Origin: a virus | Direction: 5' to 3' (one strand) | DNA length: 64,000 nucleotides | IMG/VR virus record: IMGVR_UViG_3300030333_002778 | Coordinates: 25,461 to 89,460 of that record | In this document: in pieces, positions 658-27,900 of the stretch | Layout: every line of letters begins with the position of its first letter | How positions within the stretch are numbered: the stretch's first letter is position 1 | The notes under the pieces: generated by a model | What the model saw: only the letters and a program-made list of their open reading frames with translations | What the model was told of the DNA's origin: nothing | The model's database searches: none | Translations under genes and position numbers: made by a program

Positions 658-661
658 TGTT

Positions 662-740
662 GTGGGATGGAGTATATCGTAAGAATACTTGAGGATTTTT
701 AGTTGATTGTAATTATTTTTTGTCCTTTCATGCATCCCAC
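662..740 (+). ncRNA. Candidate structured RNA, element 1 (~79 nt, three-way junction)
   Basis: GTGGGATG(662-669)/CATCCCAC(733-740) closing stem; inner AGTAT/ATACT and AGGAT/GTCCT hairpins. Confidence 0.5.
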
Positions 741-748
741 TTATTAAA

Positions 749-820
749 GGGGAATTTAGTATAGTGAGTGGCGCGTTGCTATACACATTTTTGCTGACAT
801 AATCTTGGATGGTTTCCCCA
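749..820 (+). ncRNA. Candidate structured RNA, element 2 (~72 nt)
   Basis: GGGGAA(749-754)/TTCCCC(814-819) closing stem; 9-bp GTATAGTGA/TTGCTATAC hairpin with two G-U pairs. Confidence 0.5.
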
Positions 821-828
821 GTATACAA

Positions 829-921
829 AGAGGAGTGCTCGATATAAGACGAGGTTATTCACGCATTCGTACATGTAGTTTTAAAAGTTCCATCTTAATT
901 CAAGCATGTGAGAGCTCCTCT
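829..921 (+). ncRNA. Candidate structured RNA, element 3 (~93 nt)
   Basis: AGAGGAGT(829-836)/GCTCCTCT(914-921) closing stem; inner CTCG/CGAG and ACATGT/GCATGT stems. Confidence 0.5.
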
Positions 922-926
922 GTGAT

Positions 927-1156
927 ATAAACAAAGAAAGACGGAAGACCGTTAGACTATTATTAATTATAATTGTAACAGGTTATAAACGTTAGTTTAA
1001 TAAAGAACGTCACTATGTAGAAAGAGGTTATCCATTTATCTTCGGATATTTCGATGAATGATCATTGTAATTGTGATCTGATAGATCTGTAGTTAATTCT
1101 ACGGGGAGAATCAGCATAGTTACCATAGACTGTCATGAAGTCTTTCACTTGTTTAT
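927..1156 (+). ncRNA. Candidate large multi-branched RNA, element 4 (~230 nt)
   Basis: ATAAACAA-A-GAAAGAC/GTCTTTC-AC-TTGTTTAT closing helix; six or more inner hairpins including TATC-TTCG-GATA. Confidence 0.6.
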
Positions 1157-1285
1157 GTATTAGCCAGTGATATGGATATAATAATAGATAAGCCGGCCAG
1201 CTTATCGCGGGAAAGTAATCCGTATTGGATGACTTAACACAATAGTGTTAAACCCATTATTATTGAAGTATCACTAGGCTGATAC
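1157..1285 (+). ncRNA. Candidate structured RNA, element 5 (~129 nt)
   Basis: GTATTAGCC-AGTGATA/TATCACT-A-GGCTGATAC 16-bp closing helix, then ATAATA/TATTAT, capped by three hairpins. Confidence 0.6.
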
Positions 1286-1407
1286 GCTTATAGCAAATAC
1301 TATTATCATTATGATAATGTATAAATATTTAGTTATGTCTATTCTCATTGAATACAATATACATATCTAATGTTACAAGAATGTTAAATTAAAATTAAAT
1401 AATTATT

Positions 1408-2022: not shown

Positions 2023-3894
2023 ATGAGTAAAATAGTATTAATTACAAATCAAAAACAAATAACGACTCCAAATTGTCCTTTTGAAATAGGAACAATGGAA
2101 GAGTGTGTAGATTATTTGAAAGGTCAACAATATATAGCTGTTGATACTGAAACTGAGGGTAAGGATTTCACCCGCAAAAAAATAGTAATGTTTCAAATAG
2201 GAACAAAAGAAATTCAATATGTTATAGATACTAGATATATATCTATAGAACCACTAAGAGATATACTTGAAGATACAGAATATCATGTAAAAATATTTCA
2301 TAATATTAAGTTTGATTATAAGTTTATTAAATCAAATTATAATATTGAAGTAGAGAATATTTATGATACTATGTTAGCTGAAGGTGTATTACATTGTGGT
2401 AAAGATAAGCACGGATACAGCCTTAACCGCCTAACACAGAGGTATTTAGGGGTGACGCTTGACAAAGAAGTTCGTAACAAATTTATAGGATTAGATGGTA
2501 AACCATTTACTGCTGAACAAATTTGTTATGGAGCTAAAGATGTACAATATTTGATTGAAATTATGGAGACTCAATTAGATCAGATATTTAAACTAGAATT
2601 ACATTATGTATTAATACTAGAAAATAAAGCAGCTTTAGCTTTTGCAGACATAGAATATAATGGTCTATGTTTTGATCAAGACTCTTGGCTTAAGAATGCT
2701 CAGGTAAATGAAACTGAAGTTACTTTACTCGAACAAGAATTGGATCAATGTATTGTTGATAATAATCTAGATGATTTTATTTCTAATCATGTTCAGCTTG
2801 ATTTCTTTACACCTGTTGAAGATCTTCGTAAAGTCAATGTTAAGTGGTCATCTCCTATGCAAGTTAAGAATGTAATGGAAAGACATTTAGATACATCACT
2901 TGAAAAAGTTAATGCATTTGAATTATCTAAATATAAAGATAGACCATTTGTAGGTAAATATCTTAAATATAAAGAAAAACAAAAGATATTAAGTACTTAT
3001 GGTAAATCTTTTCTTAAATATGTGATGAAAGATGGTAAAGTCAGAACAAGCTTTTGGCAAATATTAAATACTGGGCGTGTGTCTAGTGGATCTAAAGAGG
3101 ATCGTAAGCCTAATATGCAGAACATTCCAGCGAGGAATCAGTTTAGGAATTGCTTTCATGCAAGAGATGGACACAGTATTGTATCTGTTGATTACAGTGG
3201 GCAGGAGTTAGCTATTATTGCTTACGGTTCTCAAGATCCTGTTTGGATTAAATGTAGAAAGAATAATGAAGATCTCCATTCAGTATGTGCTGAATTAGTA
3301 TTTGGTGATAAATGGCATACAGGTGATAAAAAGAAATTAAGAAACATGATTAAGACTATTAATTTCGGATTAGCTTATGGTATGAGTAAGTTTAAATTAT
3401 CTGATACATTAAATATTGATGTAGATGAAGCTGATGAACTTATAAAGAAATACTTTAGCGCATTTCCTAATATAAAAGCATTTTTAAATAAACTTGGATG
3501 GTATGGTGTTATGAATGGTCATATTAAAACTTTTAAACCTTTTAGAAGAATTAGATGGTTTGAAAATTGGTATGCAGGTATACATAATTCATATAAAGAT
3601 TTCAAGATTAAAGGAGCGATTGAGCGTGCATCTAAAAATACTCCTATTCAAGGTACAGGAGCGGATATGATTAAACAATCTATGATTCTCATAAGAGAAG
3701 AGATTAAGAAAAATAATTATCCTTGTTACATGGTAACACAAGTACATGATGAAATAGGTGTAGAAGTTAAAGATGATTTCGCTGAAGAATGGGCTCATAT
3801 ACAATGTGAGTTAATGAAGAAAGCTGGTAAAATGATTGTTGATGGATTTGAAATGTCAGTTGATTATACAATAACTAAAAAATGGAGTAAATAA
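2023..3894 (+). CDS. polA: DNA polymerase family A with N-terminal 3'-5' exonuclease
   Basis: Exo motifs AVDTETEG, HNIKFD, YGAKD; motif A VDYSGQEL, motif B RNMIKTINFGLAYG, motif C QVHDEI; TGRVSS..PNMQNIP. Confidence 0.97.
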   Translation: MSKIVLITNQKQITTPNCPFEIGTMEECVDYLKGQQYIAVDTETEGKDFTRKKIVMFQIGTKEIQYVIDTRYISIEPLRDILEDTEYHVKIFHNIKFDYKFIKSNYNIEVENIYDTMLAEGVLHCGKDKHGYSLNRLTQRYLGVTLDKEVRNKFIGLDGKPFTAEQICYGAKDVQYLIEIMETQLDQIFKLELHYVLILENKAALAFADIEYNGLCFDQDSWLKNAQVNETEVTLLEQELDQCIVDNNLDDFISNHVQLDFFTPVEDLRKVNVKWSSPMQVKNVMERHLDTSLEKVNAFELSKYKDRPFVGKYLKYKEKQKILSTYGKSFLKYVMKDGKVRTSFWQILNTGRVSSGSKEDRKPNMQNIPARNQFRNCFHARDGHSIVSVDYSGQELAIIAYGSQDPVWIKCRKNNEDLHSVCAELVFGDKWHTGDKKKLRNMIKTINFGLAYGMSKFKLSDTLNIDVDEADELIKKYFSAFPNIKAFLNKLGWYGVMNGHIKTFKPFRRIRWFENWYAGIHNSYKDFKIKGAIERASKNTPIQGTGADMIKQSMILIREEIKKNNYPCYMVTQVHDEIGVEVKDDFAEEWAHIQCELMKKAGKMIVDGFEMSVDYTITKKWSK

Positions 3895-5090
3895 TGAATA
3901 TATCTAAAATAAAAGATAAAATTCAAAGAAAAGGTCTAAATAAATGGTTTAGTAAGCCGTGGTATGGGAGGGGTACTCTACAATATGCTACCGGTTCAGG
4001 TAAGACACGTTGTGGTGTTCTGGCCGCGGCTTATTTAGCCAAAATAACTAATATGGATGCTAGGATATTAATATTAACTCCTACTGAAACTATTAGAGAT
4101 AGATCATGGAAAGATGAATTTTATAAATGGAACGAAGGTGATGTATATGAACAATGTGTTAAATGTGTTTGTATACAAACCGCATATAAATGGATAGGTC
4201 ACAGTTTTGATCTAGTAATTGCAGATGAAATACATAATTATGTATCTCCTGAATATTTTAATTTCTTTGCTAATAACAAATTTGTTAGGATATTAGGATT
4301 ATCTGCATATATAGATCCAATTAAATTGAGATTATTAAATAGTATAGCACCTGTAGTAGAATCTATTTCTACATTAAAAGCACAGGATCTTGGATTGATT
4401 AGTCCATTCAAGATATATAATGTCCCGGTTAGATTGACCACAGATGAACAAATAGAATATGATAAAGCAGATAAATCATTTAATGGTTTATTTTCCTTTT
4501 TTAACAAAGATCTTAAAACTATGTTTGCTTGTATGAATACAAATGTATATAGTAATTTTCTTGCTAAAAAAGGCATGGTTCTTGACGCTTCTGTGGCAAG
4601 CTATCCGTTTATGTGTAATGCAGCAATGGCTAAGAGAAAGAATATAATATATAATTCTAAATCTAAAATCAAAGCTGTTAAAAAACTATCAAATATTTTT
4701 TCTGAGAAGAAGGCTATTATATTTTCTCAGACTATTGAATTTGCTGACAAAGTCACAGATGAATTAGATAATTGTGTAAGTTTTCATAGTAAAATTCCTA
4801 AAAAGAAAAGAAATGAAAACTTGAATTTGTTAAAGAGCGGGAACTCAATAACACGAATATCTACTGCTAAGGCTTTGAACGAAGGTATGAATGTACCTGA
4901 TATTTCTATGGCAATTATTGCTAGTGGAACAAGCAAGACTAAAGATATGATTCAGCGTATTGGTAGAGCAGTACGTTGGGAAGCTAATAAAGAAGCTTCA
5001 ATCTTTCGTCTCTACATTCAAGACAGTCAAGAGGAGAAATGGGTTAGCGCTTCTCAGGAAAAATATGAAGTTGAACAATTAAAATTATAA
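3894..5090 (+). CDS. Superfamily 2 (DExH) helicase
   Basis: ATGSGKT, DEIH, GLSA, EGMNVP, QRIGRAVR; TAATG overlap with polA. Confidence 0.93.
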   Translation: MNISKIKDKIQRKGLNKWFSKPWYGRGTLQYATGSGKTRCGVLAAAYLAKITNMDARILILTPTETIRDRSWKDEFYKWNEGDVYEQCVKCVCIQTAYKWIGHSFDLVIADEIHNYVSPEYFNFFANNKFVRILGLSAYIDPIKLRLLNSIAPVVESISTLKAQDLGLISPFKIYNVPVRLTTDEQIEYDKADKSFNGLFSFFNKDLKTMFACMNTNVYSNFLAKKGMVLDASVASYPFMCNAAMAKRKNIIYNSKSKIKAVKKLSNIFSEKKAIIFSQTIEFADKVTDELDNCVSFHSKIPKKKRNENLNLLKSGNSITRISTAKALNEGMNVPDISMAIIASGTSKTKDMIQRIGRAVRWEANKEASIFRLYIQDSQEEKWVSASQEKYEVEQLKL

Positions 5091-6317: not shown

Positions 6318-7306
6318 CAAAAATAAATAAACCTAGATTACAATATACAAGTATAAAGAAAGCAACATTTGATGCTACTCAGTATATTGAAAAGAGAAGA
6401 AAAGGATTAATTAAATCCTTAAGAACTCCATGGTCTAAATATAACCATGTGAGTATGGACGGAATAGAGTGGAACACTATACATACTATAGCGGGTATGT
6501 CTGGTAGTGGTAAAACTGCTATTATAAATCAGTTAGAAACAGAATTATTTAGATTAAATACAGATGAAAAATTTGCTGTATTATCATTTAATTTTGAAAT
6601 GCTAGCACGTCAACTAATAAGCAGAAAGTTTTCTAATGCTTTAAATACAACAACTAGAAAACTACATAGTGGTATAGAAGGATATTCTTTATCTGATGCT
6701 GCTTATTATAAAGTTCTTTCTACAGGAAAGGAATTATCTCAATTACCTATATGGTATGTAGAAATGCCTGGAAATGTAGAGTTAATTAAAAATACAATAG
6801 AACATTTTGTTACATCCGCAGAAAATAAAGATCGTGGTGTAGTAGTTATGTTAGATCATACAATTCTTGTAAGAGGTAAAGCCGGAGAATTAGAACGACT
6901 AATATTAGTTGAACTGATGGTTATGGCAAACTCTCTTAAAAAGAAATATAAGATTGCATTTGTATTTTTATCTCAGCTGAATAGAGAAATAGAACAAGCT
7001 GATCGAGTTGTAGAACCATCACAGCAATTTCCTAAAAAGAAAGATTTATTTGGTGGTGATTCAGTATATATGTTCTCTGATTTAGTAATGGTTTCAATGA
7101 ATCCTGAGCAATTAGGATTAGAAACTTATGGACCAAAGAGTTGGCCAACTAAAGATGCATTATTTTGGCATTTTCTAAAAGTAAGAGAGGGTAAACCTTG
7201 TATTGCTAAAATGAAAAACGAATTAATGTATAATAGAGTGGTTGATTATACGGTAGAAAATGTATATGAATTAAATACTAATAAAGATGACAAAAATATG
7301 GGATGA
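6314..7306 (+). CDS. dnaB: DnaB-like (SF4) replicative helicase, mainly the ATPase domain
   Basis: AGMSGSGKT, FNFEM, LDH, LSQLNRE, KVREG. Confidence 0.9.
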   Translation: MTKINKPRLQYTSIKKATFDATQYIEKRRKGLIKSLRTPWSKYNHVSMDGIEWNTIHTIAGMSGSGKTAIINQLETELFRLNTDEKFAVLSFNFEMLARQLISRKFSNALNTTTRKLHSGIEGYSLSDAAYYKVLSTGKELSQLPIWYVEMPGNVELIKNTIEHFVTSAENKDRGVVVMLDHTILVRGKAGELERLILVELMVMANSLKKKYKIAFVFLSQLNREIEQADRVVEPSQQFPKKKDLFGGDSVYMFSDLVMVSMNPEQLGLETYGPKSWPTKDALFWHFLKVREGKPCIAKMKNELMYNRVVDYTVENVYELNTNKDDKNMG

Positions 7307-7658
7307 TAGTAATTTTATATCAACTGGTAATGACTATGATATAGATTATAGCAACTCAGAAGATTATGAGAGTTGTGTAAAAGAACTAGAAGCATTAGCA
7401 AGAAATATAGAGGAAGCAAAACGACCTGGATATACTCAAGCTAATGGAGACGTATTGGCTAATTTCAAGAAAGCGGCAGAATTAGCTGGGACAACACCTA
7501 TGCAAGCATGGGGTGTATATTTTTATAAACATGTAGCTGCAATTTTATCTCATGCTAAAGATCCTAATATTCCTCAAGCGGAAGATTTGGATGGTAGATT
7601 TGCAGATGCGATGAATTATCTTAAATTGGGTTTTTACCTATTAAAACAGAAAAAGTAA
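7287..7658 (+). CDS. All-alpha DUF1599/nucleotide-modification-associated-like protein
   Basis: K..GY...DVLANF...KH....GRFADAMNY pattern. Confidence 0.55.
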   Translation: MTKIWDDSNFISTGNDYDIDYSNSEDYESCVKELEALARNIEEAKRPGYTQANGDVLANFKKAAELAGTTPMQAWGVYFYKHVAAILSHAKDPNIPQAEDLDGRFADAMNYLKLGFYLLKQKK

Positions 7659-7659
7659 T

Positions 7660-8331
7660 ATGGCGAATTTAGTTATTATATGTGGAAAGTCAGGATCCGG
7701 CAAGTCCACCTCTGGAAGAAATTTGGATCCTAAAACTACTTTTTGGGTAAATAGTGATCAAAAAGCATTACCATTTAAAGGATGGAAAAAGAATTATTCT
7801 AAAGAAAATAAGAATTATTCTAAAGTATCTTCTTTAGTGGAAACATGTAATATTTTGAAAGCTATACCTGAACGTGCTCCTCACATTAAAACTGTTATTG
7901 TTGATACAATTAATCGTATGATGACAGATAAAGTAATGGGAGAAAGACATGTTAAAGGATTTGAAAAGTGGACTCAATTATCTGGTGGTATATATGATAT
8001 ATTTACTATAATAAATCAAATATTACCTGATGATATTGATGTATTTGTATTAGCGCATTCTGAGGAAGGATACAATGATATGGGTGCTCAATATAAGAAA
8101 GTAATGACAGCTGGAAAACAACTTGATCGCATTGTTTTAGAGTCTATGTCAAGCGTTGTTTTATTTACTGAAGTTAAAGCCGATGGTAAAGGAAAGAACG
8201 AGTATATGTTTCAAACACAAACTGATGGTGTTTCAACTGCGAAATCACCTGAAGGAATGTTTGAAGAATATTTAATTCCTAATGATTTATTAGAAATTAA
8301 AAAAGCGATGAATAAATATTATAATGAATAA
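7660..8331 (+). CDS. AAA-family ATPase (Sak4/AAA_24-like)
   Basis: GKSGSGKS, VIVDT, LAH, TAKSPEGMF...IPND. Confidence 0.88.
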   Translation: MANLVIICGKSGSGKSTSGRNLDPKTTFWVNSDQKALPFKGWKKNYSKENKNYSKVSSLVETCNILKAIPERAPHIKTVIVDTINRMMTDKVMGERHVKGFEKWTQLSGGIYDIFTIINQILPDDIDVFVLAHSEEGYNDMGAQYKKVMTAGKQLDRIVLESMSSVVLFTEVKADGKGKNEYMFQTQTDGVSTAKSPEGMFEEYLIPNDLLEIKKAMNKYYNE

Positions 8332-8353
8332 TTAATCGATTAAAATTAAATTT

Positions 8354-8911
8354 ATGTATCAAATTAATCAGACTGTAAAGTCAGAGGGATCGTCTACCTC
8401 AGTATTCCCGTTAGGTATAACGGAAAATGCAGAAATGACGAATGTTAGTGTTGACACTGCTAGTAATGGTAATGCATTTCTTAAGTTTGAATTTACTTCA
8501 AATGAAGGATCTAAGCTAAATCATTTCGAGTGGCCAATAGACACACAAAATGAAGGTTGGGAAAAGAAATTACAATCTCAAATGAAGAGAGTAAAACATA
8601 TCCTAACTAAATTTATGGAAGAAGATAAAATAATTATTAATGCAGATTCTTTTGAAGGATTTGCTAAAGGTGTAATCACTTTACTTGGTAATACTTATGT
8701 AGGTAAGAAATTAAGAGTAAAAACTGTTTATAGCTACAATAATTATGTATCTATTCCTAAATATGTTCCTTTCGTTGAAACTATGGATATTAATCCAACT
8801 AAGTTAAATATAACAAGTTTTGATAAAATGGAAAAAGATGAAGCTGATAACCCAGCTACATTAAGTTCAACAAGTACAGAAACTAAATCAGATGGTGATT
8901 TACCATTCTAA
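8354..8911 (+). CDS. ssb: Single-stranded DNA-binding protein
   Basis: OB-like beta pattern, acidic C-terminal DGDLPF tail, position between the ATPase and the primase. Confidence 0.75.
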   Translation: MYQINQTVKSEGSSTSVFPLGITENAEMTNVSVDTASNGNAFLKFEFTSNEGSKLNHFEWPIDTQNEGWEKKLQSQMKRVKHILTKFMEEDKIIINADSFEGFAKGVITLLGNTYVGKKLRVKTVYSYNNYVSIPKYVPFVETMDINPTKLNITSFDKMEKDEADNPATLSSTSTETKSDGDLPF

Positions 8912-8947
8912 ATAAAATTTAGTTTCTTTGCGTTAATAAAATATATA

Positions 8948-9982
8948 ATGTATAAAATAAATATTTCGTTAACCAAAGAAGCTGTACTTAATAAAATAAG
9001 TTCGTACCAAATTTTTAGTTATTATTTGGGCCGTGATTTTAAATCCGGCATAGTATTGAGTAGTCCCTTTAGACAAGATGATAAACCAAGTTTTTCTTTG
9101 TTTACCGATCGTAAAGGGACTATTCGGTATAAAGATTTTGGTACTGGTGAATCGGGTGATTGTTTTAATTTTATTCAGAAGAAATTCGGAATAGGTTTTT
9201 ACGATTGCCTTATTCGCATTAATAACGACTTTAAATTGGACTTAATGTACAGTGGAATTGGCAGAACAACTGTTCCTTATGACGGTTTCAAGACTGCAAT
9301 CAAAGAACTAAATTTTAATCCTAAAAAATCTATAAATGTTAAAGTACAACCTTATACTTTTATAGATGAACATTACTGGAATCAATATGGTATTGACAAG
9401 AATTTACTTAAAGTATATAATGTATTTTCTTGTAAATGTGTTTTCATTGGAGATAAAACTGTAGCTACTTATGTAAATAATAATCCTATTTACGGCTATT
9501 TGTTTTATAAAGATGAAGAATACACATGGAAAATCTATCGTCCTTTATCTATTAACGGATACAAATGGATGAGCAATACCAATAGAACTGTATTTCAAGG
9601 ATGGGATCAATTACCTAGAAAAGGTGATTTTATTATTATTACTAAAGCATTGAAAGATGTTATGGTATTAAGAACATTAGGATTCATAAGTGTTGCATTG
9701 CAAAATGAAATCGCAGGTATAAAGGATACTGTTGCTCATGAATTATATGAGAGATTTAATGATGTATATATATTAAATGATTTTGATTATACTGGCGTAA
9801 GAGGCGCTAATAAACTAAAAAAGAAATATGGTTTCAAACCTATATTTCTTCAATGTTTTAAAACAAGATCAAATGGATTTAAAGATATATCTGATTTCAG
9901 AAAATCTCATTCATATGAAGAAAGTAAAAGTTTAATAAAAAAATTAATAGATAAATGGAAATACGAAGAGAACAACCCGTAG
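8948..9982 (+). CDS. dnaG: DnaG-like primase, crAss type
   Basis: SPFRQDDKPSF...YKDFGTGESGD, WKIYRP, TKALKDV, NDFDYTG, KDISD. Confidence 0.9.
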   Translation: MYKINISLTKEAVLNKISSYQIFSYYLGRDFKSGIVLSSPFRQDDKPSFSLFTDRKGTIRYKDFGTGESGDCFNFIQKKFGIGFYDCLIRINNDFKLDLMYSGIGRTTVPYDGFKTAIKELNFNPKKSINVKVQPYTFIDEHYWNQYGIDKNLLKVYNVFSCKCVFIGDKTVATYVNNNPIYGYLFYKDEEYTWKIYRPLSINGYKWMSNTNRTVFQGWDQLPRKGDFIIITKALKDVMVLRTLGFISVALQNEIAGIKDTVAHELYERFNDVYILNDFDYTGVRGANKLKKKYGFKPIFLQCFKTRSNGFKDISDFRKSHSYEESKSLIKKLIDKWKYEENNP

Positions 9983-15565: not shown

Positions 15566-15913
15566 CTACTCTTCATGTCCGGGATTTAATAGATATCTAA
15601 TCAATTTCCCCCTTTTTTCAGAACGCGACTTATTCGCTTTTGTAATATTATCTTTTATTTGTTTAATATCCGCGCATATTTCATACTCTTCTGTGCTTTC
15701 AAAATAATCTAATAGAACATCAAATACTGATCTATCTTCATATTCAGTTAAAAGCCAGAAAAAAGTATTAGGAAATATACTAAAGTCATAATTACTAAGT
15801 ATTAATCTATAAGTATTAATCATAGATGATCTTTTAATTATTTCTTTTTCTTTTTCACTAAATTCTTCTTCTTCTTCGAAATCATCGTTAAAATTATCAA
15901 AACTGTATTTCAT
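15566..15913 (-). CDS. Small acidic protein with a UVR-like motif
   Basis: YFESTEEYEICADIK; coupled to the RNAP gene stop. Confidence 0.7.
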   Translation of the reverse strand: MKYSFDNFNDDFEEEEEFSEKEKEIIKRSSMINTYRLILSNYDFSIFPNTFFWLLTEYEDRSVFDVLLDYFESTEEYEICADIKQIKDNITKANKSRSEKRGKLIRYLLNPGHEE

Positions 15914-18900
15914 TATTTAAGATCAAAGAATTTTATTTTATCTCCAGGATGTGTATTCCATTCCTTAAATGGTAATATTCTCTTAAAGTATTTACTTATT
16001 TTAGCATCTCCTTTATCATAACCTCTAGTCTTTCTCTTATATCTTTCAAAATCTCCACCTGTTAATACAGATGTTAAATCTGATGTACCTTGAGAGAAGA
16101 ATTTATATAATGCTTCTAGTCCAGACATACCTGCCATTGGTGTTCTTAATATATCAAAGAATGCAGTCGTAGGTAAGTAGAATAATAATTCTGATTCTAC
16201 CCTTTTGATCGTATATAAAGCCTGCCATTCTGCTCTACTAAGCTCATCATCTTCTTTATCTCCTCTTATTCTTCCAGGTAATATTAATAACAACATTAAG
16301 AAAGCTATTTCTCCTAGCGCTCTTTTTAAATTAGCTTTTTGCCATGTAGGTAATTCTTTATAACGTTTACCAAATTCAAAATTAAGTTGTCTAGCTTCTT
16401 TAAACATAGTAACTATAAATTTAGCCGCGGTTACATAGTTTCCTTCTACTTCAGACATCAATCTTTCATTATAATCTGCTTTTTTATAAGGAGATTTAGC
16501 ATCATAGATTACTTTTTCTATTCCTTCAAATCTTCTCATTGCTCCTGGTCTAAGCCATTTACGGAACTGCATAGCTGCTCTACCCATTGCATATTGTTGT
16601 AAAGCTGCTCTGTCTGATGAATTATAAATACCATGCATTCTTTGATAAACTGCTTTTACTCTTTCTATAAAATCAGTTTTATCTCTATGTGTAAATTGTT
16701 CTGCTACTTCAGGATTTAGTACTAATCTTTTATCTTTTACTTTATATGCATCCCATAGATTAATATATTTACCACTAGATAACTTAAACTGCATATTCAT
16801 CATTTGTGCAATAAATAATTGAGACTGTATTCTGTGCTCTCCAGCCGACATCATAAAATAAATAGCTCCTGGGTTTAAAGATCTAATAAAGAAATTTTTA
16901 TGGTCTATTCTTTGTCCCGCTTCATTAAAATTGGATAAAACATCAAAGTTTTCTAATAACATTCCTAATTTTGAAGTAGGTCTTCTTGATGCGACATCAT
17001 TTATTATTCCAGGTAATGATAAATTGTATTTAGCAGTACTCTTTCCATAAGTTTTTAAATTTAGATATTGTCCTGCAAAAGCTTCTACCCAGTTTAATAA
17101 CATACCAAACCCTGCATTAGATAAACCAACGTGTGGGTTTAATGCTAATACTCTTAATGCATTATAATTAATAGCAAGATCTACTAACTTAGTGTCTGTT
17201 ATCTGTCTAGTTCCTCCGCCTAATGTTTTAATAGTCGAACCTTTTTTCTTTTTCTTTTGATAAACAATCATATCTAAATAATCGTTAAATCTATCATAAG
17301 ATCTTGAAATTTCACCTGAATAAGTTATTTCTTCTCCAGTTACCTTATCTACTATAGGCATTCCTTTACCGCTCAGTTTTCTTACTTGTCTGTGTTTTAA
17401 TAATTCCTTAGTCATCTCTAACTCATTAATAATAGTTTGCATATTATTATAGTTATTAGCCATTGTAAAGAATTGTCTTAATGAGCTTCCCAAGTCGTAA
17501 GATACTTCTTCTGGAGTAAGATCAAAATTCTCACCAGTTCCTATCTTCAAAGTATAATGTGTAGGGACATAACTTAAAGGCTCTCCTGTTTTTGAAACTA
17601 TTTCACCATAAGATGTTTGATCATCCCCAACAGTAAAGTAATCTATAAGTGTTTCTTTAGCTGTTCTTTTTAGTTTTTTATCAGACTCTAATAATAACTC
17701 TGCTTTTGAAGCTCTAATAGATGGTAAGAAAAATCCTGTTTCTTCAGTCCCTCTTCTATATTGCTGTTCTAATAATGTATTAGCATATTTAAAGTTCTCT
17801 ATAAAATAATTATAGAATATTTTTCTTTGATCTCCTTCAGGTAATGCTTGTAATTTTTTATACTGCTCACTATATTCTATAGGATTATTTTTAAAGAAAT
17901 TAGACCAAGTATCTTTACTAGATAAATTTGTGCCATTTTGTATACTATCTCTAACAAATTTTCTTTTCTTTTCATACCATTCGTATGTATGCTGATTAAG
18001 AATTCTTCCAGTTAACTTTCCATCTTTAGTTTTTTCAAGCATAAAATCATAAAGCTCTCTAAAACTATTTGTTCCTACCCCTTTTGAAGTTTGAAATGCT
18101 TCTAACTTCTTAATACGTTCATACAATCCTATATCCTCTTTACCTGTCCCGTATAAAAACTTTTGTTCTTGTTCATGTGTTTTATATACTTGTTCTTTAA
18201 CTAATTTATCAACAGCTGCTAATACTGAATCTTTAGAATCCCCCATAGCATCTAGCCATCTAGCTAATAAACTAATATCTCTTCCCGCTTTTACTAATTC
18301 ATTTTGTATAAACTCTTCTTTATTTTCAATTCTAGGATCTGAAATATAATCAGATAAGAAATTTGCTAATAAAGGTCTTCCTAAAGCTTTATATAATTCA
18401 TATACTTTTTGTCTTTTATAAATAGCAGGAGCTACAATTTCATTTATTTCTTGTTCGTAGCCTTCGTTAGCTAATAGCGGAGCAGCTAATGATATTTCAT
18501 CTAACATATCATATGTCTGAACAAATTTTAATACTTTATTCAGCTCTGGTATATTAACAGAACTAGTTGTTTCAAGTTCTCTTAGTTTATTGTATGCTGC
18601 ATCAATATCTGCATTAGCTCTTCTCATAAATAGAATAAGCCCTTCTTTTTCTCCGATCTCATCTAGCTTTCCAAGTAAATCTTTTAATCCTGTTACATAT
18701 TCTTTTGCATCTTTTTGTCGTTGTAATGAAGCTATTTTCTTTTTAAGATTGTTCTTAGCTGTTTCAAATATTTGCGATATCCTATCAGTCTCTTTATTAG
18801 CTTCTGCTTGAGCTCTTTCATTATTTGGATTTAAAAAGTTAAACATGTTTTTTAATGTCTTGTTCTTTATAGGCTTAAGCTTTTTAAGTTTAGAAGCTAC

Positions 18901-21900
18901 AGGACTAGCTGGATTTAATAAATCAACACTAGTCATAATTACTTCTCCTGCTTTATTAATTGTAACATCAGCTTCTAAGCCTACTATATTCATTTCGTCT
19001 ATTTTTATTCCTTTATTCTGAATAATATATCTATATAGCGAAAGTTGTAATCTATACTGATTAAGTAAGTTATTAGGAATTGTAGCTAAAGGGCCTGTAA
19101 AAGATGGTAATTGAGACTCTAATGTTAAGAATTTACCTTTCATTTTAGTTTTAAAGTCATGTATAATTCTTTTTCCTGTAGATGTAACCTCTATAATATC
19201 TACTTGACCTCCAATAATATCACTTTTATCTGCTACTTTTGTTTCCGTGTACAATCTACTTCCAGCTGTTATTTTAGATCTAACCCAAGCTCTTAGTTTA
19301 GGTAAGTTCTTATTAATAGCAGCTTTAGAACTAGTATCTAGATTTAAAGAATCTATTATTTGTTTATCCGTTAAGTTATTTACAATACCTTCCATGGTTT
19401 TGTGTAATTGCGTACCAACACCATCTTTTAAGAATTCCCATAATTTTTCTACTTTTTCAGATGTATTAAAAGGATTACCTGCTCTTCTATTAGCAGCTGC
19501 TACTTTTTCAGCTATTTCTTTAGAAGCAAATGGTTTAGAGAAAGCTTCTATAAAAGAAGTCGTTCTATTTAATTTTATACCATCTAATTCATAGAAATTA
19601 TTTTCAGTAGTAGGATCTTGAATCCTATTACTTTCATTAATCATCTGTGAAAAGTTTTGTTTTTGATTGTTTAAAGCATAGTACTTTTCTACTCCTAAAT
19701 TATCTATATTTAAACCGGTTATATCTCCATTTAATATACGAGAAGCCATAGGTCCAAATACATTATCTAATTGTTGTCTAAGCTCATCTTTTGCTTCTTG
19801 GTTTCTAGTAAATAATGCTTTTATTTGGTCCCATATTTTTCTTAACGTTCCTATGAATCCTTTGTATTTTTCTCTAACCTGCTGTTCATTTACTATATAT
19901 TCAGCTAATATCTTACCTGCAGTTTCTTTTTGGAATTGATAGTCTTCTGTATATAATTTTTCATAATCTTTTACGACTTGGCCGTATAAATCTGTTTTAG
20001 AAGCTAGTGCTAATAGTCTTTGAACTGTAGGCTTATCTTCTAATGCTTCTATAAAGAAGTGACTTAATTCCTCTGGTACAGTATATCTATCTCTATTCTG
20101 ATCTAAATACATAATTCTATTAAGCATATCAGCTGCACCTACTGCATCTACACCTAATTTTTTCTTAAGATTATTAATAGTTACTGCTTTAACTCCAAAA
20201 TGTTTTTCAGCAAATCCTATTAAATAATTATCTAGATCTTTCAAAGCAGACTCTTTCATTTCTGGGCTTAATCTATATTCAAGTGTATTATTTCTACTTG
20301 TTATAGACCCTGAATCAAACATATTTGTTTGTGGTTGAGTATTTTGCTCTGTTTTATTGGCAGGATGGATACTTTCGTATCTTTCTTGCGCATACATTTC
20401 TACAAATCTGTATCTTTCTCCTAAAGGAGGTATTTCTTGGTATATTGCACCATTTAAATTCCCTGAATTTGTTTCGCTAGCAGCTAAAAATTTATATAAT
20501 CTCCATTTACCTGCATTATATGATCTAAAATAATGTACAAATTCATTTGAATTTGGAACAGCACCTTCAATTATAAGATTTGGGTTTTGACTTTTATGTA
20601 AATAATGTTGATTAGCCTTTAAATTATGCGCTTTAATTAATTGCGGAGTTCTATGAAGAACTTTTTTATCTGCTATTTTTAAGAATCCAGGATCTGTAAA
20701 CATATTTCTAATAATCTGATGAGTAGCATTTAAGAAATACTGATCATTCCACATTGAATTAGCCTCTGTTCTAAAGTAATTAGTCAATCCTGAAGATTTC
20801 CAATAGGATACTGGAACAAGATCTACAAAAGAATTAGGTCCTTTCATTAATCCTGAAGTAACAATAGAATACGATATTAAAGATTTAGCTAAATTTGCTA
20901 CATCTTCTCTAGGGTCTAATAATAATTCGGCCCATCTATCTGTTATCTCTGATCTTTCTGATGGGTCTAGTTTAACACTATTATTAAATGCTATTAATTG
21001 TATAAATTTATCAGAACTTAAGTTATCAGGATGTGCATATAATAAGCCTAAGAATGGGTCATTAAATAAGTCGTGTTTCTTTTTAATTTTAGCTAACCTA
21101 GAAGCTAATGATTTTTGGTATTTGAATAATACGTTTTCAAGACTTTTTGTTCTAACTTCTCCTGATTTAGTATAAAATAATCCTCTCATAGGAGAATCAG
21201 GTTTAATTACAGAGAAATATAAACCTAAACTATTAATAGTATCTATATTTTGTGGTGATAATATACCATCTTCTTGACCTGTTAATTGTGCTATATTTCT
21301 TTTTAATTCTATAAACCCATTTTTATTAAATGGAATAAAGAAACTTGTAAATTCATTAGCGGATTCTATACCATATGTTATGTAAGACTGTACTCTCTTA
21401 GGTATTTTAGTAATTTCTATAGCAGATTTACTACTTTGTATATAATCTACATTATCCATAAATTGTTCTAGGTAACTTAATCTACTAAATCGTTTTATAC
21501 CATCTGGTGATAAATATCTATTACTTTTTGAAACATCTTTTGCTACTTTTAAGTATCTCATAAAGTCACTTAAAATTTGTATTTGTTTTTTAAGATCTGC
21601 TTCATTTGAAAGATCTGCTTGTAAACCTGTATCATTTAAATAAGATGCAGTAGGAGTAAATTCTATTAGATTTTTTCTATTTATATTATTATAATAATCT
21701 AGTTGGCCTAATTGTTCTGCAGTAGTTCTAGCAATTTGAGCATGATTAGTAAAAGCAGGCGCATTTTTTACATTTTGTTCTAATTTTCTTATAATAGGCT
21801 GATTTATAAAATCTAATGCAGTTTCAACATTAAATCCAGCTCTATTTAGTATAGCAATTACTCCATGGTTAAATAGAGTTACACCTGCACGACCAATTCT

Positions 21901-24900
21901 TAAGTTTTTAGCATTATCTAAAGACTCACTCTGATGTGCAGCTATATAATTTAATATATATTCTCCATCAAAACCTTTTATTTTTGTCAGATCTACATGT
22001 GATGAAATATTATTTGCTCTTATGTTTATAGAATACTCTGGTTTTATTGTCATATCAGTAGACTGTGAAAGCGCGCTTCCTACAGAATGGTTTGAAAATG
22101 CTCCAATTAATGCAGCTGCTTGTTTATTAACCTCTTCTAAGTACATTTGACCTGAAGTACTAAATAAATTTAACCTACTCATTGTAGGAATTATACCTAA
22201 TCTTTCGTATTTATTAATTAGATTTACATAAACATCTGTATCTAGAGGATTCATAACCTCTTCTACATGATTTTTAGAAGTTAGAATAGTATAATTTATA
22301 TCATATATTAAATTATCTAAAGCTTTTGTAGATACGCCATCAAAATTTTGTTTTTCTTTATATTTTACATAATCAAAAGCTGAAATCTTTTCTCCATTAT
22401 TTGTTAGTTCGGGGAACATTAAGAACATTTTATCAATATCAAAATCAGCTCCCATTTTATTTACAACTTCAGTAGGTAATATTACTATACCACCCGCGTT
22501 CTCTGGTAAGACTTCTACTATTTCTAATGCCATCATAGAAACTTTTAATTGTGTAGGAATCCTATAACCAATAGATGTAAGTGCTTCTCTAGTTATGTTA
22601 TTTTTAGCTAGATATTCTTCTGTAACTACTCCTGCAGGTAAATTATATTTAGCTCCTAATTGATAAGGTAATTTTATTTGAGCTACAAAACCTCCGTTTT
22701 TAGTAGGCTTTATAGTAAGTTCATCTGAAAGTTTATGTCCATACTGAGCTATTTGAATAGCCCCCATTCCTTTTGTTTTCTGTCTTAAAACTCTATTTTT
22801 ATATAGATTATTTAAAATAGACTCAAATGTTTTTGCAAATGTAGGAAAAGAAAGAGGTGCTTGGAAATCATATCTAGTTTCTATATTATCAATTATTTCG
22901 TCTATATTTAATATCAAATAATAATTATCCTCTAATTCTCTTTCGTTTAAAGAATTTTCTAATATACCTCTAACCTTTAAAAGAAATTTTTTCTGATCTT
23001 CATAGTACTGATTAAATTCAGCTGCACCTTTTATTTCATCTCTATTTTCATATCGTTCCTTAAACTCTTGCCAACCCATTTCTTTTACTAATCCATCATG
23101 AGATCTTTTTATTTTTTCTGCAAATGCACTATCATATAAATCTCTTATTTGATCTCCTTTTATAGAAATACCATTTAATGTGTAATTAAAATTAGACTCT
23201 ATATTAGCAGTAATAAGTTTACCAAATTGAGTTCCATATAATTGTTTTTTAGCTTTAAAATCAACTACTTGTGGTGATCTTAGATTTCTAGTATCTAACT
23301 CAGTTACTACTATATCTTTTAATTGTTCTTGAGTTGTTGGATTTGATATACCAACAGCTCCTGTCTTAACTGCAGACTCAAAACTTACCATATCTATTTT
23401 CTTAAGACCGCTGTATTTACCTACAGCTTCCATACGTTGTCTTAAGTTATTTATCGTTACTGATTCTGAGCTATCTTTTTCATTTTCTGTCATCTCTCTT
23501 AATAATGGATAAACAGAGTGTTTAATTTGCTCCCATACTAGAGTTTTTCTACCATTATTATCTTCTACTATTCTATCTCCCCAATAAAAAGTTTTTAAAG
23601 GATCAAATAATAGTTTTTTAGATTCTTTATTTCCTAGTTTTCCTTTTGACCAATATTTCTCATAGTATACTCCATGCTTTTCAGGTATCCATTTACCCTG
23701 GGACTCTAAATAAGATTTATAAAATTCTATAGTAGAAAAACTTTGCGCATCTGTTTTATTTAGATTGGCAAATTGGTCTGCTATTTGATCAGCCTTTTTA
23801 GAACCGGCTTCTTTCAATGCTTTACGTATATTCTCAACTAATGTAGGATCTTTTTTATATACATCTTTAAATATAGAATGTGATATAGTATTACTCATAC
23901 CATACTTTCCTATTACAGGATCAAATCCAGGAGTTATACCTGCATAATTTCTTTTACCCGCATCTATAAATATATTACCTGTATTATCTGCTTTATAAAA
24001 TGCAGGATCCCCCATCATCATAGTATATATATGAGGTAAATAAACAATATCATTAATAGCAAATTCTACCAAAGCTGGCATAATATTTGTATTAATAGTC
24101 TTTCCCTGTAAACTTTTAGGAGGTAATAATATATTCTTATATGTATTATCTTTTTCGTTCTTAGAAACTATTCCTTCTTTTTCAAATTTGTTTAAAGTCT
24201 CTGTTATATTTTGTATAACATATTCTCTGAGTTTATTTTTTATCTCTTTAACGGCATTACTCATCTGCTCTTGACTAGCAGTATTTGAGTCTCTTAACAT
24301 TCCTAACTCAGTATAGAAATCTATATTATTTAAAGTAGGAAATATAATAAATCTTAATCCATTTGCATTTTTTCTATCACTCATATGATCTCCAGGCTCA
24401 TTTTTATAATGATAATTCTGTATCATACTTTCTCTGCTTATTTTATTATCTCCAAATAATTGGTCTTGAACTTTTAATATTCTACCATACTCTCTTAAAG
24501 CTAGCGGATATAATAAATCTACTGCAGTATCTACAAATTGATTAGCTTGGTTAACACTAGTGCCATTCCAAGTTATATGACTAGATCCTGGATATATTCT
24601 AGGTAATGCCATATACATAGATTGCATTTTATCAGATCTAGTTCCTATATTTATTTTAGTAAAAGGCTGACTTCTATCAGTAAAAAAAGCCCATCTAGTT
24701 AAAAGAGATTGTTGTGGATTTAAATCTTTATAAGATGTTGATCTTCCTTTATATCCTGCTTCCTTAAGAGAGTCTAATGTAACTATACTTAATTTTTCTC
24801 TAACATTATCAAATTTTTCTATAAGATCAAGGATTAAATGATCTTCATAGAATGTATCTTGTTTATATTTATTTATAGCGCTTTCATAAGTATTTTTACT

Positions 24901-27900
24901 TCTTAGTTCTAATACTCTTTTAGAATCAAATGTATTTAGATTAATAGCATATATATTTTTACCATTACTATGGAAAGAAGCTAAGGCTTTATCTACTTTA
25001 AAGTTAGATGCTAATTGAGCAAACTTATTTAAAGACCCCATTTCCATATCTCCTGCAACAAATGGGCTGATTCCTTTTCTTAATTTAGCTAGTATATGTG
25101 AATAAGAATTTGATCCTGACATATACTTATGTAAGTCTCTAACAAAAACTTCATCATTATTATATAAACTATTATAAGCTTCATTAGGAATTAATATACC
25201 AGTTCTATCTAGTATTTTTTTCATCTGCTCAATATACTTCTTCTTAACTTCTCTATGAGCATTCATCTCTTTTTGCTGATCTCCTTCTTTTACAATAAAC
25301 TTTAGATTTGACCATAAGTCAAATATTTCTTTAGCTGTAGACTCATTTATAGTATCTTGTTTACCTTCTTGTATATTAAATAGATCTGTAGTTACTTCTC
25401 TATTTCCTATCCAATCATTGATAATCATTCTATTAAAACTATTTCTATTTGCATAGACTAGTTTTATCATACCATCTTGAATAATAGGAATTTCAAAATC
25501 TATAAGTTGATCATTCATATGGGTTATAAACTTATTTTTAAAAGCCGGTGACCCATTATTTATTCTATCCAATACAACCTCCGCTATTTTATTATCCTCT
25601 GCTAATAGCTCTAATCTATTCATTACATCTCCCTGTGGAGTATTCGCTAATGCAAATTTTAAATAAGAGTAAACTTCAGAGAATGAGTAGAAACTTTTTT
25701 CTCCTAATAAACCTCCTCTAGACCCATCATTTTTTTGTATTAAAGATAGTTCTATTTTTACATCTTTAGATAATGTAGCTTTTCTAGGTCTCTCAAAGAA
25801 ATTTATCCCATGAATATGTTGCGCTGTTTCTAATTCTGCGTTTTCTAAATCAGTTTCAAACTCTTCTGATGCTGCTATATCAGATGTATTTTCTTCAGAA
25901 ATATCTATTTGTTCTTCTATTTCAGCATTTTGAGTTTCTATTAATTTTCCAGACTCTTTAAATCCGAATCTTACACCAAATACTGTTAAGTTTCTAACAA
26001 CAAGATCTCGGAATCCGGGGCTAACAACATTTATATTATTTTCATCAAATTGACTATAAAAGTTTTCTTGTAATGCTGCTTTTGACCATTCTTCTCCTTG
26101 TTCTATTCCTGCTTCTGTCATCTGCTCACCTATCCTTTCCATATTTTGTCTTGCAGCTTCTAGTTTTGCTACTAATATTTTAGGATCTGTTAATTTTTCT
26201 AGCCATAAATCACCATATTCTTTCTGATAAGCTTCTCGCATCTTATTAGTAATCACATCTACAATTTCATTCTTTTGAATATTAGTATATCCAGGCTTTT
26301 GTCTTAGTTTATACGCGACTGTTGATCGTTCTCTTAATTCTTTAGTAGTATACTTATTATAGTTTCTAGAACTTAAATCACTAAACATCTCATTAAGAGT
26401 AAGATCCATACCTAAGAATTTCTTTATGTATGTCATAATATCCTTAAAGAATTTAGCTATGGTTCCTATTAAACCTCTATTTTCTTGAGTAATTCTATAC
26501 TCCATAAAAGATTCCGCTAATTTTGTTTCAAGCTCTTGTTGATTTTGTATACCCCACTGTTGTTGAGCAGCTTTAAATAAAGAAGATTTTTCATTAGCAG
26601 TTAAATGTAAATCTATTATTCTTCGCATAGCTTCCCAATAAGCTGTACCTTTCTTAGCAAATTGTGCTAATGTTACCATACCCTGATGGTAATATCCATA
26701 AGCTTGACGACCATCTTTTAAAGTAATATACTTAACTCTTGCAGCTATTTCTAATCCCTCTTCACCAAACTTATCAATAAACCATTGTACTTCTTCTTCA
26801 GATAATAAAAGATTAGATTCTGGATTAACTTCATATTGTCTTAATTTAAAATCAGTATCTATATCATCACGAGATTTTGTAGGAGGCTTCTTTTTAGGCG
26901 CTTTTTTTATTATTTCCTTCTTTTTATTCTTTTTTTCCATCTGTTCTCTTGCAAAATTATCTAGATTTTGCATTTTACTAGGGTCAAAAGATGGACTATA
27001 CTTATTATCTATCTGAGCTTGTGGATCAAATCCAAATAAATTAGAATTTTGATTAAATTCAGGCCCTTTATTTAAGAAATCTGGGACTTTTTTTGGATTA
27101 GATTTAAATTTTTCTTCAGTAGGCTCTACATAAATATTAGAATTATAGAACTGTTGAGATCCATTAGCTGGAATATCTGTTGAAATAGGTAATATATTAG
27201 GATCTGTTAAGTATTCAAAATAAGAATTCCATGACCCTAGTTTAGATTGAAAAGGATCTTTCATCATTTCCATTCTAGCCTTCTGAATATTATATTTCTT
27301 ACTCATAAGATGTTCAACTAGTGCTTCTCTTATACTTTTTCCACTCAGATCTAGAGTTTTAGAACTTATATATTTATTTTTTCCTTGTTTTTTAACAGCT
27401 CCTGTTTCTTTATCGTATTCAACAAAGAAAAATTCAGGATTGTATGATAAATTATGTCCATTAAGAGCTGTTAGAAAATTATTTCTTTTATTTTGTCCTG
27501 CAGCACGGTATTGTAATCCAATAATTTTATCTTTATATGGAAATACTATTTCAAAATTATCAAACACAAGTCCTGGAGCATTCTTGCTATACGTTCTTAC
27601 AGTATTAACTATTTTTTTAATCTCACTTTCTATAGTAGCCGGAGTTAAACTATAGTCTAATATAATTTCAATAACTGCATCAGCTGCTTCTTGACTTAGA
27701 TTAGATGTAGATAATCTAACAGGAGTAAGTATTCCGTTTGCTCTTTTAATAGCAGCATATATAGCACCATGCTCTATAAAAGTAGAAATATCAAAATCCA
27801 TATTATTTTTTTGCCATATAATAACACCTTCATTTTTATTACCATATCCTAATATTAATGAATTAGCATCTCCGAGTACACTTATAGGCTGTTCTATAGA

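What the first reader, a model, noticed from the sequence alone, without database searches (positions are those of the whole stretch)
662..1378. Back-to-back array of 5-6 self-closed structured RNA domains: candidate polycistronic phage ncRNA cassette
Seen: the only large non-coding gap in 64 kb is tiled almost completely by units whose 5' and 3' ends pair: 662-740, 749-819, 829-921, 927-1156 and 1157-1285, plus a weaker AT-rich unit at ~1288-1378. Spacers are only 0-8 nt. The units differ in sequence, so this is not CRISPR or a tandem repeat, and each holds two or more internal hairpins. Non-Watson-Crick pairs are repeatedly G-U on the + strand and there is a C(UUCG)G loop, which points to RNA structure on the transcribed strand rather than DNA cruciforms. 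Inference: one precursor is processed, like a tRNA operon, into several stable small RNAs. Their position among small early/middle genes suggests host-takeover or anti-defence roles, such as decoys for anticodon nucleases, toxin-antitoxin or Cas proteins, or RNAP sponges. I recognise no known family.
Basis: partly seen in the sequence, partly recalled or inferred. Interest (0 to 1): 0.85.

Follow-up and report, generated by a model that had tools for sequence, protein, structure and literature searches.

The report
Modular structured RNA array, marine crAss-like phage
The only gene-free stretch of this marine crAss-like phage window encodes a row of folded RNA modules, three of which belong to uncatalogued RNA families that related ocean phages keep through compensating mutations; what they do is still unknown.

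Summary
Window 658-1407 is the only large ORF-free gap.

Three units are real, conserved RNA structures on the + strand.
- Unit 5 (1157-1285) is an 18-bp stem with a bulged A. It is found in 23 distinct marine phage contigs, 98.6% paired, with 8 of 18 pairs changed on both sides.
- Unit 4 (922-1157) is matched end to end by a covariance model built only from distant relatives (28.7 bits, E 2e-4).
- Unit 1 (659-743) is matched by a model built from three other phages (29.7 bits, E 5e-5).

The other three units are weaker. Unit 3 has one homolog. Unit 2 and the AT-rich unit 6 fold no better than shuffles. Unit 6 looks like conserved regulatory DNA.

No tRNA, tmRNA or Rfam family matches the window. 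Modules are swapped between relatives, and two relatives carry a tmRNA-like tRNA mimic in the same array.

The closest precedent is the abundant, stable early long non-coding RNAs of Cellulophaga phage phi14:2. One of those regions contains a tmRNA by my scan.

Processing into separate small RNAs and any anti-defence role remain untested. An earlier report of this scan (e1-5869933) seems to describe the same RNA family on other DNA.

The parts
659..743 (+). Unit 1: three-way-junction RNA. It has a closing helix P1, a hairpin P2 capped by the GNRA loop GUAA, a helix P3 with U5/U5 internal loop plus apical hairpin, and a J3/1 'UCAUG'.
   Evidence: Folds at z -3.5. Model R3, built only from L005, L028 and L003, hits 659-743 at 29.7 bits, E 4.8e-5 in 236 kb. 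Across 7 phages 26 pairs are 89% paired and 20 pairs changed on both sides; slid controls 40-49% (the alignment was fitted to the model).
749..819 (+). Unit 2: a 71-nt unit closed by GGGGAA/UUCCCC. Unverified.
   Evidence: Appears as a domain in the MFE fold, but z is -0.8 (40 of 200 shuffles fold as well). No homolog in any fetched locus. ARAGORN sees no tRNA.
826..924 (+). Unit 3: a stem-closed module shared with one relative.
   Evidence: z -2.0. 75% DNA identity to L003 2899-3015, with the homology breakpoints (828, 937) at the module borders. With only two sequences there is no covariation test.
922..1157 (+). Unit 4: conserved multi-branched core domain. It has a closing helix, nested helices P2-P3, a hairpin, the junction 'UAAAG..GUCAC', a variable arm carrying C(UUCG)G at 1040-1045, and a 3' 'GACUG'.
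   Evidence: Model R1, built only from 12 distant-clade phages, aligns 922-1157 end to end (28.7 bits, E 2e-4). It is the best hit in 150 kb. Over 15 sequences including W, 32 pairs are 92% paired and 24 pairs changed on both sides; slid controls 30-41%.
1157..1285 (+). Unit 5: terminal long hairpin. The outer stem is 9 bp + bulged A + 9 bp, with a conserved G.U. The apical part is a three-hairpin junction in this clade.
   Evidence: z -7.2. In 23 distinct sequences the stem is 98.6% paired and 8 of 18 pairs changed on both sides; 0 of 500 shuffles reach this, slid controls 21-48%. Model R2 scores 54.5 bits here.
1286..1379 (+). Unit 6: AT-rich region conserved in sequence, with the perfect palindrome ATTATCAT-T-ATGATAAT at 1302-1318. 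Probably regulatory DNA rather than a folded RNA unit.
   Evidence: 82-89% identical in all close relatives, with changes only in loops and no compensatory pairs. Fold z -1.1. Absent from the distant clade.
1380..1394 (+). Motif AATGTTAAATTAAAA, 13 nt before the ATG of the next gene. A promoter- or initiation-region-like signal that closes the non-coding block.
   Evidence: Three exact + strand copies in the genome's early region (genome 25177, 25318, 26840), each 10-15 nt before an ATG. A similar AAATGTTTAAYTTAAAAT follows the terminal hairpin in the distant clade.

Best explanation
The gap is a modular non-coding RNA locus read on the + strand together with the early and replication genes of a marine crAss-like phage.

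Its conserved core is a multi-branched domain of about 230 nt (unit 4). It abuts, with a 0-3 nt linker, a long bulged hairpin (unit 5). Together they form an RNA unit of about 360 nt, kept in at least 23 related phages.

Upstream lie accessory modules that relatives add, lose and move like cassettes. Unit 1 is kept in the whole close clade, unit 3 in one relative, and unit 2 is unverified.

Inferred mechanism: each module is locked by a helix between its own 5' and 3' ends and is separated from the next by short A/U-rich linkers. The primary transcript would therefore be trimmed by host endo- and exonucleases down to nuclease-resistant folded RNAs. The 18-bp terminal hairpin would be an RNase III-type site or 3' end. 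These RNAs would accumulate through infection, as the early intergenic RNAs of phage phi14:2 do, and act in trans by binding a host or phage protein.

Shown here: non-coding status, + strand structure, covariation, synteny, modular exchange. Inferred only: transcription, processing, stability, trans action.
For: - No ORF and no tRNA, tmRNA or Rfam hit.
- Folds beat shuffles.
- A syntenic array lies upstream of the replication genes in 8 close and about 15 distant relatives from ocean metagenomes.
- Three independent covariance-model and covariation tests support units 5, 4 and 1.
- The structure is specific to the + strand.
- The unit 4 / unit 5 junction is invariant (AAUCUGUAUGAG in the distant clade, UGUUUAUGUAUGAG in the close clade).
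- Homology breakpoints fall at module borders. A module that sits in L003's array (2834-2892) sits 3 kb upstream in this genome (23438-23537), with the same basal stem and a different apex.
- L067 and L002 carry a tmRNA-like tRNA mimic in the array, so these are RNA genes.
- In phi14:2, two long early intergenic regions are transcribed above most genes, from the earliest time point, and do not decay (bioRxiv 10.1101/2020.03.07.982082).
Against:
- The models of units 1, 4 and 5 find nothing in the first 12 kb of phi14:2, so that precedent is an analogy, not homology.
- Units 2 and 6 fail the shuffle test.
- The terminal hairpin has no U-tract, and no RNase gene was looked for.
- No binding partner or target is indicated by anything in the sequence.
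Confidence: 0.6

Rival explanations
1. The structures are cis-acting parts of the early polycistronic mRNA. They would be processing sites, 3'-end or terminator hairpins and stability barriers, like the RNase III sites between T7 early genes, and would have no function once released.
For: - The arrays sit at the end of one gene block and directly before the repeated AATGTTAAATTAAAA motif that precedes the next genes.
- A unit 5-like hairpin also follows the 230-aa ORF directly, 5 nt after its stop (L098 3614-3684, 32 bits).
- The 18-bp stem is the size of an RNase III substrate.
Against: - A 230-nt multi-branched domain with conserved junction sequences, and a three-way junction with a GNRA loop, are far more elaborate than processing or terminator hairpins need to be.
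- Relatives place tRNA-like and tmRNA-like genes in the same arrays.
- There is no U-tract after the hairpin.
Confidence: 0.2
2. The whole 620-nt block is one large ornate RNA that works as a single molecule, like GOLLD or ROOL, and not as an array of separable units.
For: - Spacers are only 0-8 nt, and units 4 and 5 have an invariant junction.
- GNRA loops could dock into other modules.
Against: - Module content and order differ between close relatives. Units 1-3 are absent from the distant clade, while units 4-5 persist.
- One module occurs at a different genome position.
- There are no Rfam hits to large RNAs.
Confidence: 0.1
3. The element acts at the DNA level, as a replication origin or single-strand initiation signal at the head of the replication module. 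The transcript would be at most a primer.
For: - It lies directly upstream of polA, helicases and primase.
- A conserved AT-rich stretch with a perfect palindrome follows it in the close clade.
Against: - Pairing is maintained through G.U on one strand only.
- GNRA and UUCG loops and T-loops are RNA features.
- The strand switch and the GC-skew turn lie about 3.5 kb upstream, not here.
- The AT-rich element is missing in the distant clade, which keeps the RNA core.
Confidence: 0.05
4. The block is a decaying remnant of a tRNA/tmRNA gene cluster, with no present function.
For: - Unit 2 has an acceptor-like GGGG/CCCC stem followed by A, but no T-arm.
- Sister phages have tmRNA-like modules.
Against: - Units 1, 4 and 5 are under clear purifying selection, with many compensatory changes, across phages whose polA is only 64-79% identical.
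Confidence: 0.03

Closest known systems
Abundant early long non-coding RNAs of Cellulophaga crAss-like phage phi14:2 (g004-g005 and g005-g006 junctions; Drobysheva et al., bioRxiv 10.1101/2020.03.07.982082)
   Same: A marine crAss-like phage. Long ORF-free stretches among small early genes upstream of the replication genes, on the gene strand, and tiled by folded domains.
   Different: There is no sequence or structure homology: models R1, R2 and R3 find nothing in the first 12 kb of phi14:2. One phi14:2 region contains a tmRNA, and this window has none. Expression is shown for phi14:2 and not for this phage.
Stable small RNAs in phage tRNA clusters (T4 RNA C and RNA D; from my own knowledge, not checked here)
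   Same: Non-tRNA folded RNAs encoded back to back with RNA genes, made from a polycistronic precursor. Function still unknown.
   Different: Here there is no tRNA in the array. The modules are larger (up to 230 nt) and the phage lineage is different. Processing is not shown.
RNase III processing hairpins between T7 early genes (from my own knowledge)
   Same: Hairpins of about 20 bp with a bulge or internal loop, lying between early genes on the transcribed strand.
   Different: Unit 5 carries a conserved three-hairpin apex in this clade and is fused to a large structured domain. Cleavage is untested.
tmRNA tRNA-like domain
   Same: Relatives L067 (3048-3124) and L002 (about 2350-2432) carry, in the homologous array, a 77-nt element with a G3:U70 acceptor stem, a GGUUCGAUUCC T-loop and a ...CCUCCACAA 3' end.
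   Different: No such element lies in window 658-1407. The relatives' element lacks the mRNA-like part and scores below Rfam's threshold (24.6 vs 47 bits).
Large ornate bacterial and phage RNAs (GOLLD, ROOL)
   Same: Several hundred nucleotides of multi-branched, phage-associated RNA of unknown function.
   Different: No Rfam match even at E 10. The modular, swappable make-up is unlike a single fixed architecture.

Membership tests
tRNA | Cloverleaf with anticodon arm and T-loop, detectable by ARAGORN | tested here: not met
   ARAGORN finds 0 genes in the window. A T-arm pattern scan finds none in the gap. The genome's only tRNA is tRNA-Met at genome 21761-21833, minus strand.
tmRNA | tRNA-like domain with G3:U70 plus a tag reading frame; Rfam RF00023 or ARAGORN | tested here: not met
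   No hit in the window at the gathering threshold, or at E 10 in 500-1600. The same tools do find one in phi14:2.
Any Rfam 15 family (including GOLLD, ROOL, group I/II introns, ribozymes, 6S, Y RNA) | Covariance-model score at or above the family's gathering score | tested here: not met
   0 hits in 64 kb. The best sub-threshold hit in 500-1600 has E 1.1. The relatives' arrays also have no hits, apart from the tmRNA-like piece.
CRISPR array / tandem repeat | Repeated units of like sequence at regular spacing | tested here: not met
   The repeat finder gives only short two-copy matches of 10-20 nt.
phi14:2-type early long non-coding RNA (crAss-like phages) | Long ORF-free stretch among early genes, on the gene strand | tested here: met
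phi14:2-type early long non-coding RNA (crAss-like phages) | Transcribed at a high level from the earliest time, and stable late in infection | not testable with these tools
phi14:2-type early long non-coding RNA (crAss-like phages) | Sequence or structure homology to the phi14:2 RNAs | tested here: not met
   R1, R2 and R3 give no hit in L099 1-12000.
Uncatalogued marine crAss-like core RNA (units 4+5; probably the family of scan report e1-5869933) | Large domain with P1-P4, a UAAAG..GUCAC junction and a 3' GACUG, matched by a model built without the query | tested here: met
   R1 hits 922-1157 at 28.7 bits, E 2e-4, full length. Pair counts.
Uncatalogued marine crAss-like core RNA (units 4+5; probably the family of scan report e1-5869933) | Terminal 9+9 bp hairpin with a bulged A, 0-3 nt after the large domain | tested here: met
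RNase III processing site (T7 type) | About two turns of dsRNA between cistrons | tested here: met
   An 18-bp conserved stem.
RNase III processing site (T7 type) | Cleavage by RNase III | not testable with these tools
   Needs an enzyme assay or RNA-end mapping.

The most novel reading that the evidence does not exclude
The conserved unit 4 + unit 5 core is a new class of phage RNA of about 360 nt with a specific molecular job. It could be, for example, a decoy or scaffold that captures a host translation-surveillance or defence protein, in the same toolkit as the tmRNA and tmRNA mimics that sister phages place in this array. It could also be a new ribozyme. The swappable upstream modules would be further independent effectors.
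Probability: 0.25. Interest if true: 0.85.

Novelty: new variant of a known kind. Interest (0 to 1): 0.66.

Why it matters
crAss-like phages are among the most abundant viruses known. The one cultured marine member makes large amounts of early non-coding RNA that nobody has explained.

This locus shows that a whole clade of ocean relatives keeps an array of structured RNAs under strong selection, with a fixed core and exchangeable modules. That gives three defined, covariation-supported RNA families that can be synthesised, probed, pulled down and solved. It also links these arrays to tmRNA-like elements, which is a concrete lead to translation or RNA surveillance as the target.

Tried and rejected
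- Alternative genetic codes (TAG or TGA as sense) do not open a reading frame across the gap.
- DNA searches of the phage collection found nothing, in near or distant mode.
- A loose DNA pattern in bacterial genomes gave only chance hits.
- A degenerate 5'-arm pattern in viral contigs returned only contigs already known, plus chance matches.
- MAFFT alignments of unit 1 were structurally shifted, and RNAalifold saw only 6 pairs. This was solved by building a model from three well-aligned sequences.
- R1 missed L003, L064 and L067 with default filters. Their large domains carry long insertions. I did not rerun with filters off.
- The 230-aa ORF upstream is not similar to phi14:2 g004.
- Pfam and PHROGs give nothing for the small neighbouring ORFs.
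- A sigma-70 / intrinsic-terminator scan found nothing above the shuffle expectation that explains the region.
- Searches were input errors.

Full report
**Where the window lies.** The window is bases 25461-89460 of an 89,460-bp IMG/VR virus record. The genome is 31% G+C. Genes run on the minus strand from 1 to 22 kb, on the plus strand from 22.5 to 41 kb, and on the minus strand again to the end. The plus-strand block holds small early ORFs, then polA, an SNF2-type helicase, a DnaB-like helicase, an AAA_24 ATPase and a DnaG-type primase. The best named relatives of polA are crAss-like phages at about 30% identity: cr108_1, cr111_1 and IAS virus. Closer relatives are all uncultured ocean contigs from Tara and JGI marine samples.

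**Checking the observation.** 658-1407 is the only stretch of 180 nt or more without an ORF of at least 50 aa on the coding strand. It stays closed when TAG or TGA is read as sense. G+C rises to 0.35 against about 0.26 around it. ARAGORN finds no tRNA or tmRNA in the window. Rfam finds nothing at gathering scores in 64 kb, and nothing better than E 1.1 in 500-1600.
- The whole gap folds at -192.6 kcal/mol on + (z -5.7) and -158.6 on - (z -4.7).
- A span-limited fold returns exterior domains 662-740, 749-819, 826-924, 927-1156, 1157-1285 and 1287-1379.
- Against 200 dinucleotide shuffles, unit 1 has z -3.5, unit 3 z -2.0 and unit 5 z -7.2. Unit 2 (z -0.8) and unit 6 (z -1.1) are not better than chance.
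- There are no internal repeats.

**Relatives.** Eight close relatives (polA 75-79% identical) carry a non-coding gap of 380-970 nt in the same place: W, L002/L065, L003, L004, L005/L006/L066, L028, L064 and L067. These gaps are also tiled by stem-closed domains. About 15 more distant contigs (polA 58-66%) have a 260-690 nt array after a conserved pair of ORFs (241 aa and 77 aa).

At the DNA level W matches its close relatives only over 1110/1150-1406 (76-89%). It also matches L003 over 828-937 (75%). Elsewhere the arrays are a mosaic.

**Unit 5.** Every array in both clades ends in the same long hairpin. In an alignment of 23 distinct sequences the 18-bp outer stem (9 bp, a bulged A, 9 bp) is 98.6% paired. 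Eight pairs changed on both sides; 0 of 500 shuffles reach this, and slid controls give 21-48% pairing.
- One position is G.U in 17 of 23 sequences. In all, about 47 cells are G.U against at most 6 non-pairs. The structure is therefore selected on the + strand.
- The model R2 scores 84.7 bits on + and 29.5 on - for L021.
- In the distant clade the apex is a simple hairpin, and the unit is 67-96 nt in total. In W's clade the apex is a three-hairpin junction.

**Unit 4.** The domain before the hairpin is conserved in the distant clade: 32 predicted pairs, 20 of them with compensatory changes.
- A model built from those 12 sequences alone (R1) aligns W 922-1157 from end to end at 28.7 bits, E 2e-4. 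This is the best hit in 150 kb. R1 also finds the corresponding domains of L028, L002, L004 and L005.
- With W and two other close-clade sequences (L002, L028) added, the 32 pairs are 92.3% paired and 24 changed on both sides, against 30-41% for slid partners. That alignment is model-fitted, which favours the structure. The independent hit on W is the stronger argument.
- The linker to unit 5 is 0-3 nt and invariant within each clade.

**Unit 1.** Six close relatives begin their array with a three-way junction of the same design: a closing helix, a hairpin capped by GUAA or GCAA, a helix with a U5/U5 internal loop, and CAUUAA/CAUA before the closing strand.
- A model from L005, L028 and L003 only (R3) hits W 659-743 at 29.7 bits, E 4.8e-5. 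It also hits L064, L067, L002 and L004, and nothing in the distant clade or in phi14:2.
- Twenty of 26 pairs change on both sides, with 89% paired against 40-49% for slid partners.

**Units 2, 3 and 6.**
- Unit 3 is shared with L003 only. The homology ends at the module borders.
- Unit 2 has no homolog and no fold signal.
- Unit 6 is 82-89% identical in all close relatives, with changes confined to loops. It contains the perfect palindrome at 1302-1318 and is absent from the distant clade. I read it as regulatory DNA.
- Unit 6 is followed at 1380 by AATGTTAAATTAAAA. This 15-mer occurs three times on + in the early region, each 10-15 nt before an ATG. A related motif follows the hairpin in the distant clade.

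**Modularity.**
- A module in L003's array (2834-2892) lies 3 kb upstream in W's genome (23438-23537), with the same basal stem and a different apex.
- W's genome has a second array at 24610-25200. Its first hairpin is a weaker match to R2 (32 bits).
- L067 (3048-3124) and L002 carry a 77-nt tmRNA-like tRNA mimic in the array. It has G3:U70, the T-loop GGUUCGAUUCC and the 3' end CCUCCACAA. Rfam tmRNA scores it at 24.6 bits, below the threshold of 47.

**Literature.** For the marine crAss-like phage phi14:2, Drobysheva et al. report that two long intergenic regions (the g004-g005 and g005-g006 junctions) are transcribed above most genes, rightward, from the earliest time point, and do not decline. 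Their function is stated to be unknown (bioRxiv 10.1101/2020.03.07.982082).
- In the GenBank record this is the ORF-free 2905-4601.
- My scans find a tmRNA at 4031-4500: ARAGORN gives the tag GSSVQKLAMVA, and Rfam gives 46.0 bits against a gathering score of 47, E 2.6e-16.
- My three models do not match phi14:2, so the relation is one of kind, not of family.

**Interpretation.** It is shown that this is non-coding, + strand, structure-selected RNA, with a fixed core and exchangeable accessory modules, in a conserved genomic slot. It is inferred that:
- it is transcribed with the early genes;
- the terminal helices and A/U linkers let host nucleases trim the transcript to stable modules;
- those modules act in trans.

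The rivals are cis-acting processing or stability elements, one single large RNA, a DNA-level origin, and decayed RNA genes. They are weighed in their own sections.

**Earlier reports of this scan.** Report e1-5869933 describes an uncatalogued RNA of about 440 nt kept by about twenty marine crAss-like phages. It shares short words with 922-1285 and is probably the same family on other DNA. Its claim of presence in ocean RNA samples could not be checked here.

Noticed in passing
L099 (phi14:2, NC_021806) 4031-4500: The 'g005-g006' early intergenic region of phi14:2 is reported as an abundant stable long non-coding RNA of unknown function. It contains a tmRNA gene (ARAGORN tag GSSVQKLAMVA*; Rfam tmRNA 46.0 bits vs gathering 47, E 2.6e-16). 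The gene is not annotated in the record shown.
   Followed up: partly
G000 genome 7354-7442, minus strand (outside the window): A tmRNA-like tRNA-like domain (GGGGGUA... acceptor with G3:U70, T-loop GGUUCGACUCC, 3' end UACCUCCACAAA) lies inside an 855-aa open frame (6525-9092, minus strand). ARAGORN calls it tRNA-Ala only at a relaxed threshold.
   Followed up: partly
L067 3048-3124; L002 about 2350-2432: A 77-nt mini tmRNA-like tRNA mimic, without the mRNA-like part, lies inside the homologous arrays of two close relatives. In L002 it lies within a 112-aa ORF that is probably spurious.
   Followed up: partly
window 1380-1394; genome 25177 and 25318: The exact 15-mer AATGTTAAATTAAAA occurs three times on the + strand, each 10-15 nt before a start codon of a small early gene. 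It is a candidate phage-specific promoter or initiation signal.
   Followed up: partly
genome 24610-25200 (L098 3610-4200), just before the window: A second array of stem-closed domains ('array A') lies directly after a 230-aa ORF. Its first hairpin (24614-24684) is a weak match to the terminal-hairpin model (32 bits, E 4e-4).
   Followed up: partly
genome 23438-23537 (L098 2438-2537): This stem-closed module has the same basal stem as L003 2834-2892 but a different apical part. It is an example of a module at a different genome position in a relative.
   Followed up: partly
L021 2804-4657 and homologs in the distant clade: The distant clade has a ribonucleotide reductase gene (phrog_367; weaker Pfam hits to the RNR barrel and the B12-dependent RNR insertion domain) between the array and polA. 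This window has only two small ORFs there.
   Followed up: no
L067 about 4614-5000; L003 4426-4722; L005 4203-4489: Close relatives have a further gap of about 300-390 nt just upstream of polA, and this window lacks it. In L067 it contains a T-arm-like element at about 4748.
   Followed up: no
window 15913-31374, minus strand: A single open frame of 5153 aa. It may be the giant virion-packaged protein typical of crAss-like phages. It was not examined.
   Followed up: no
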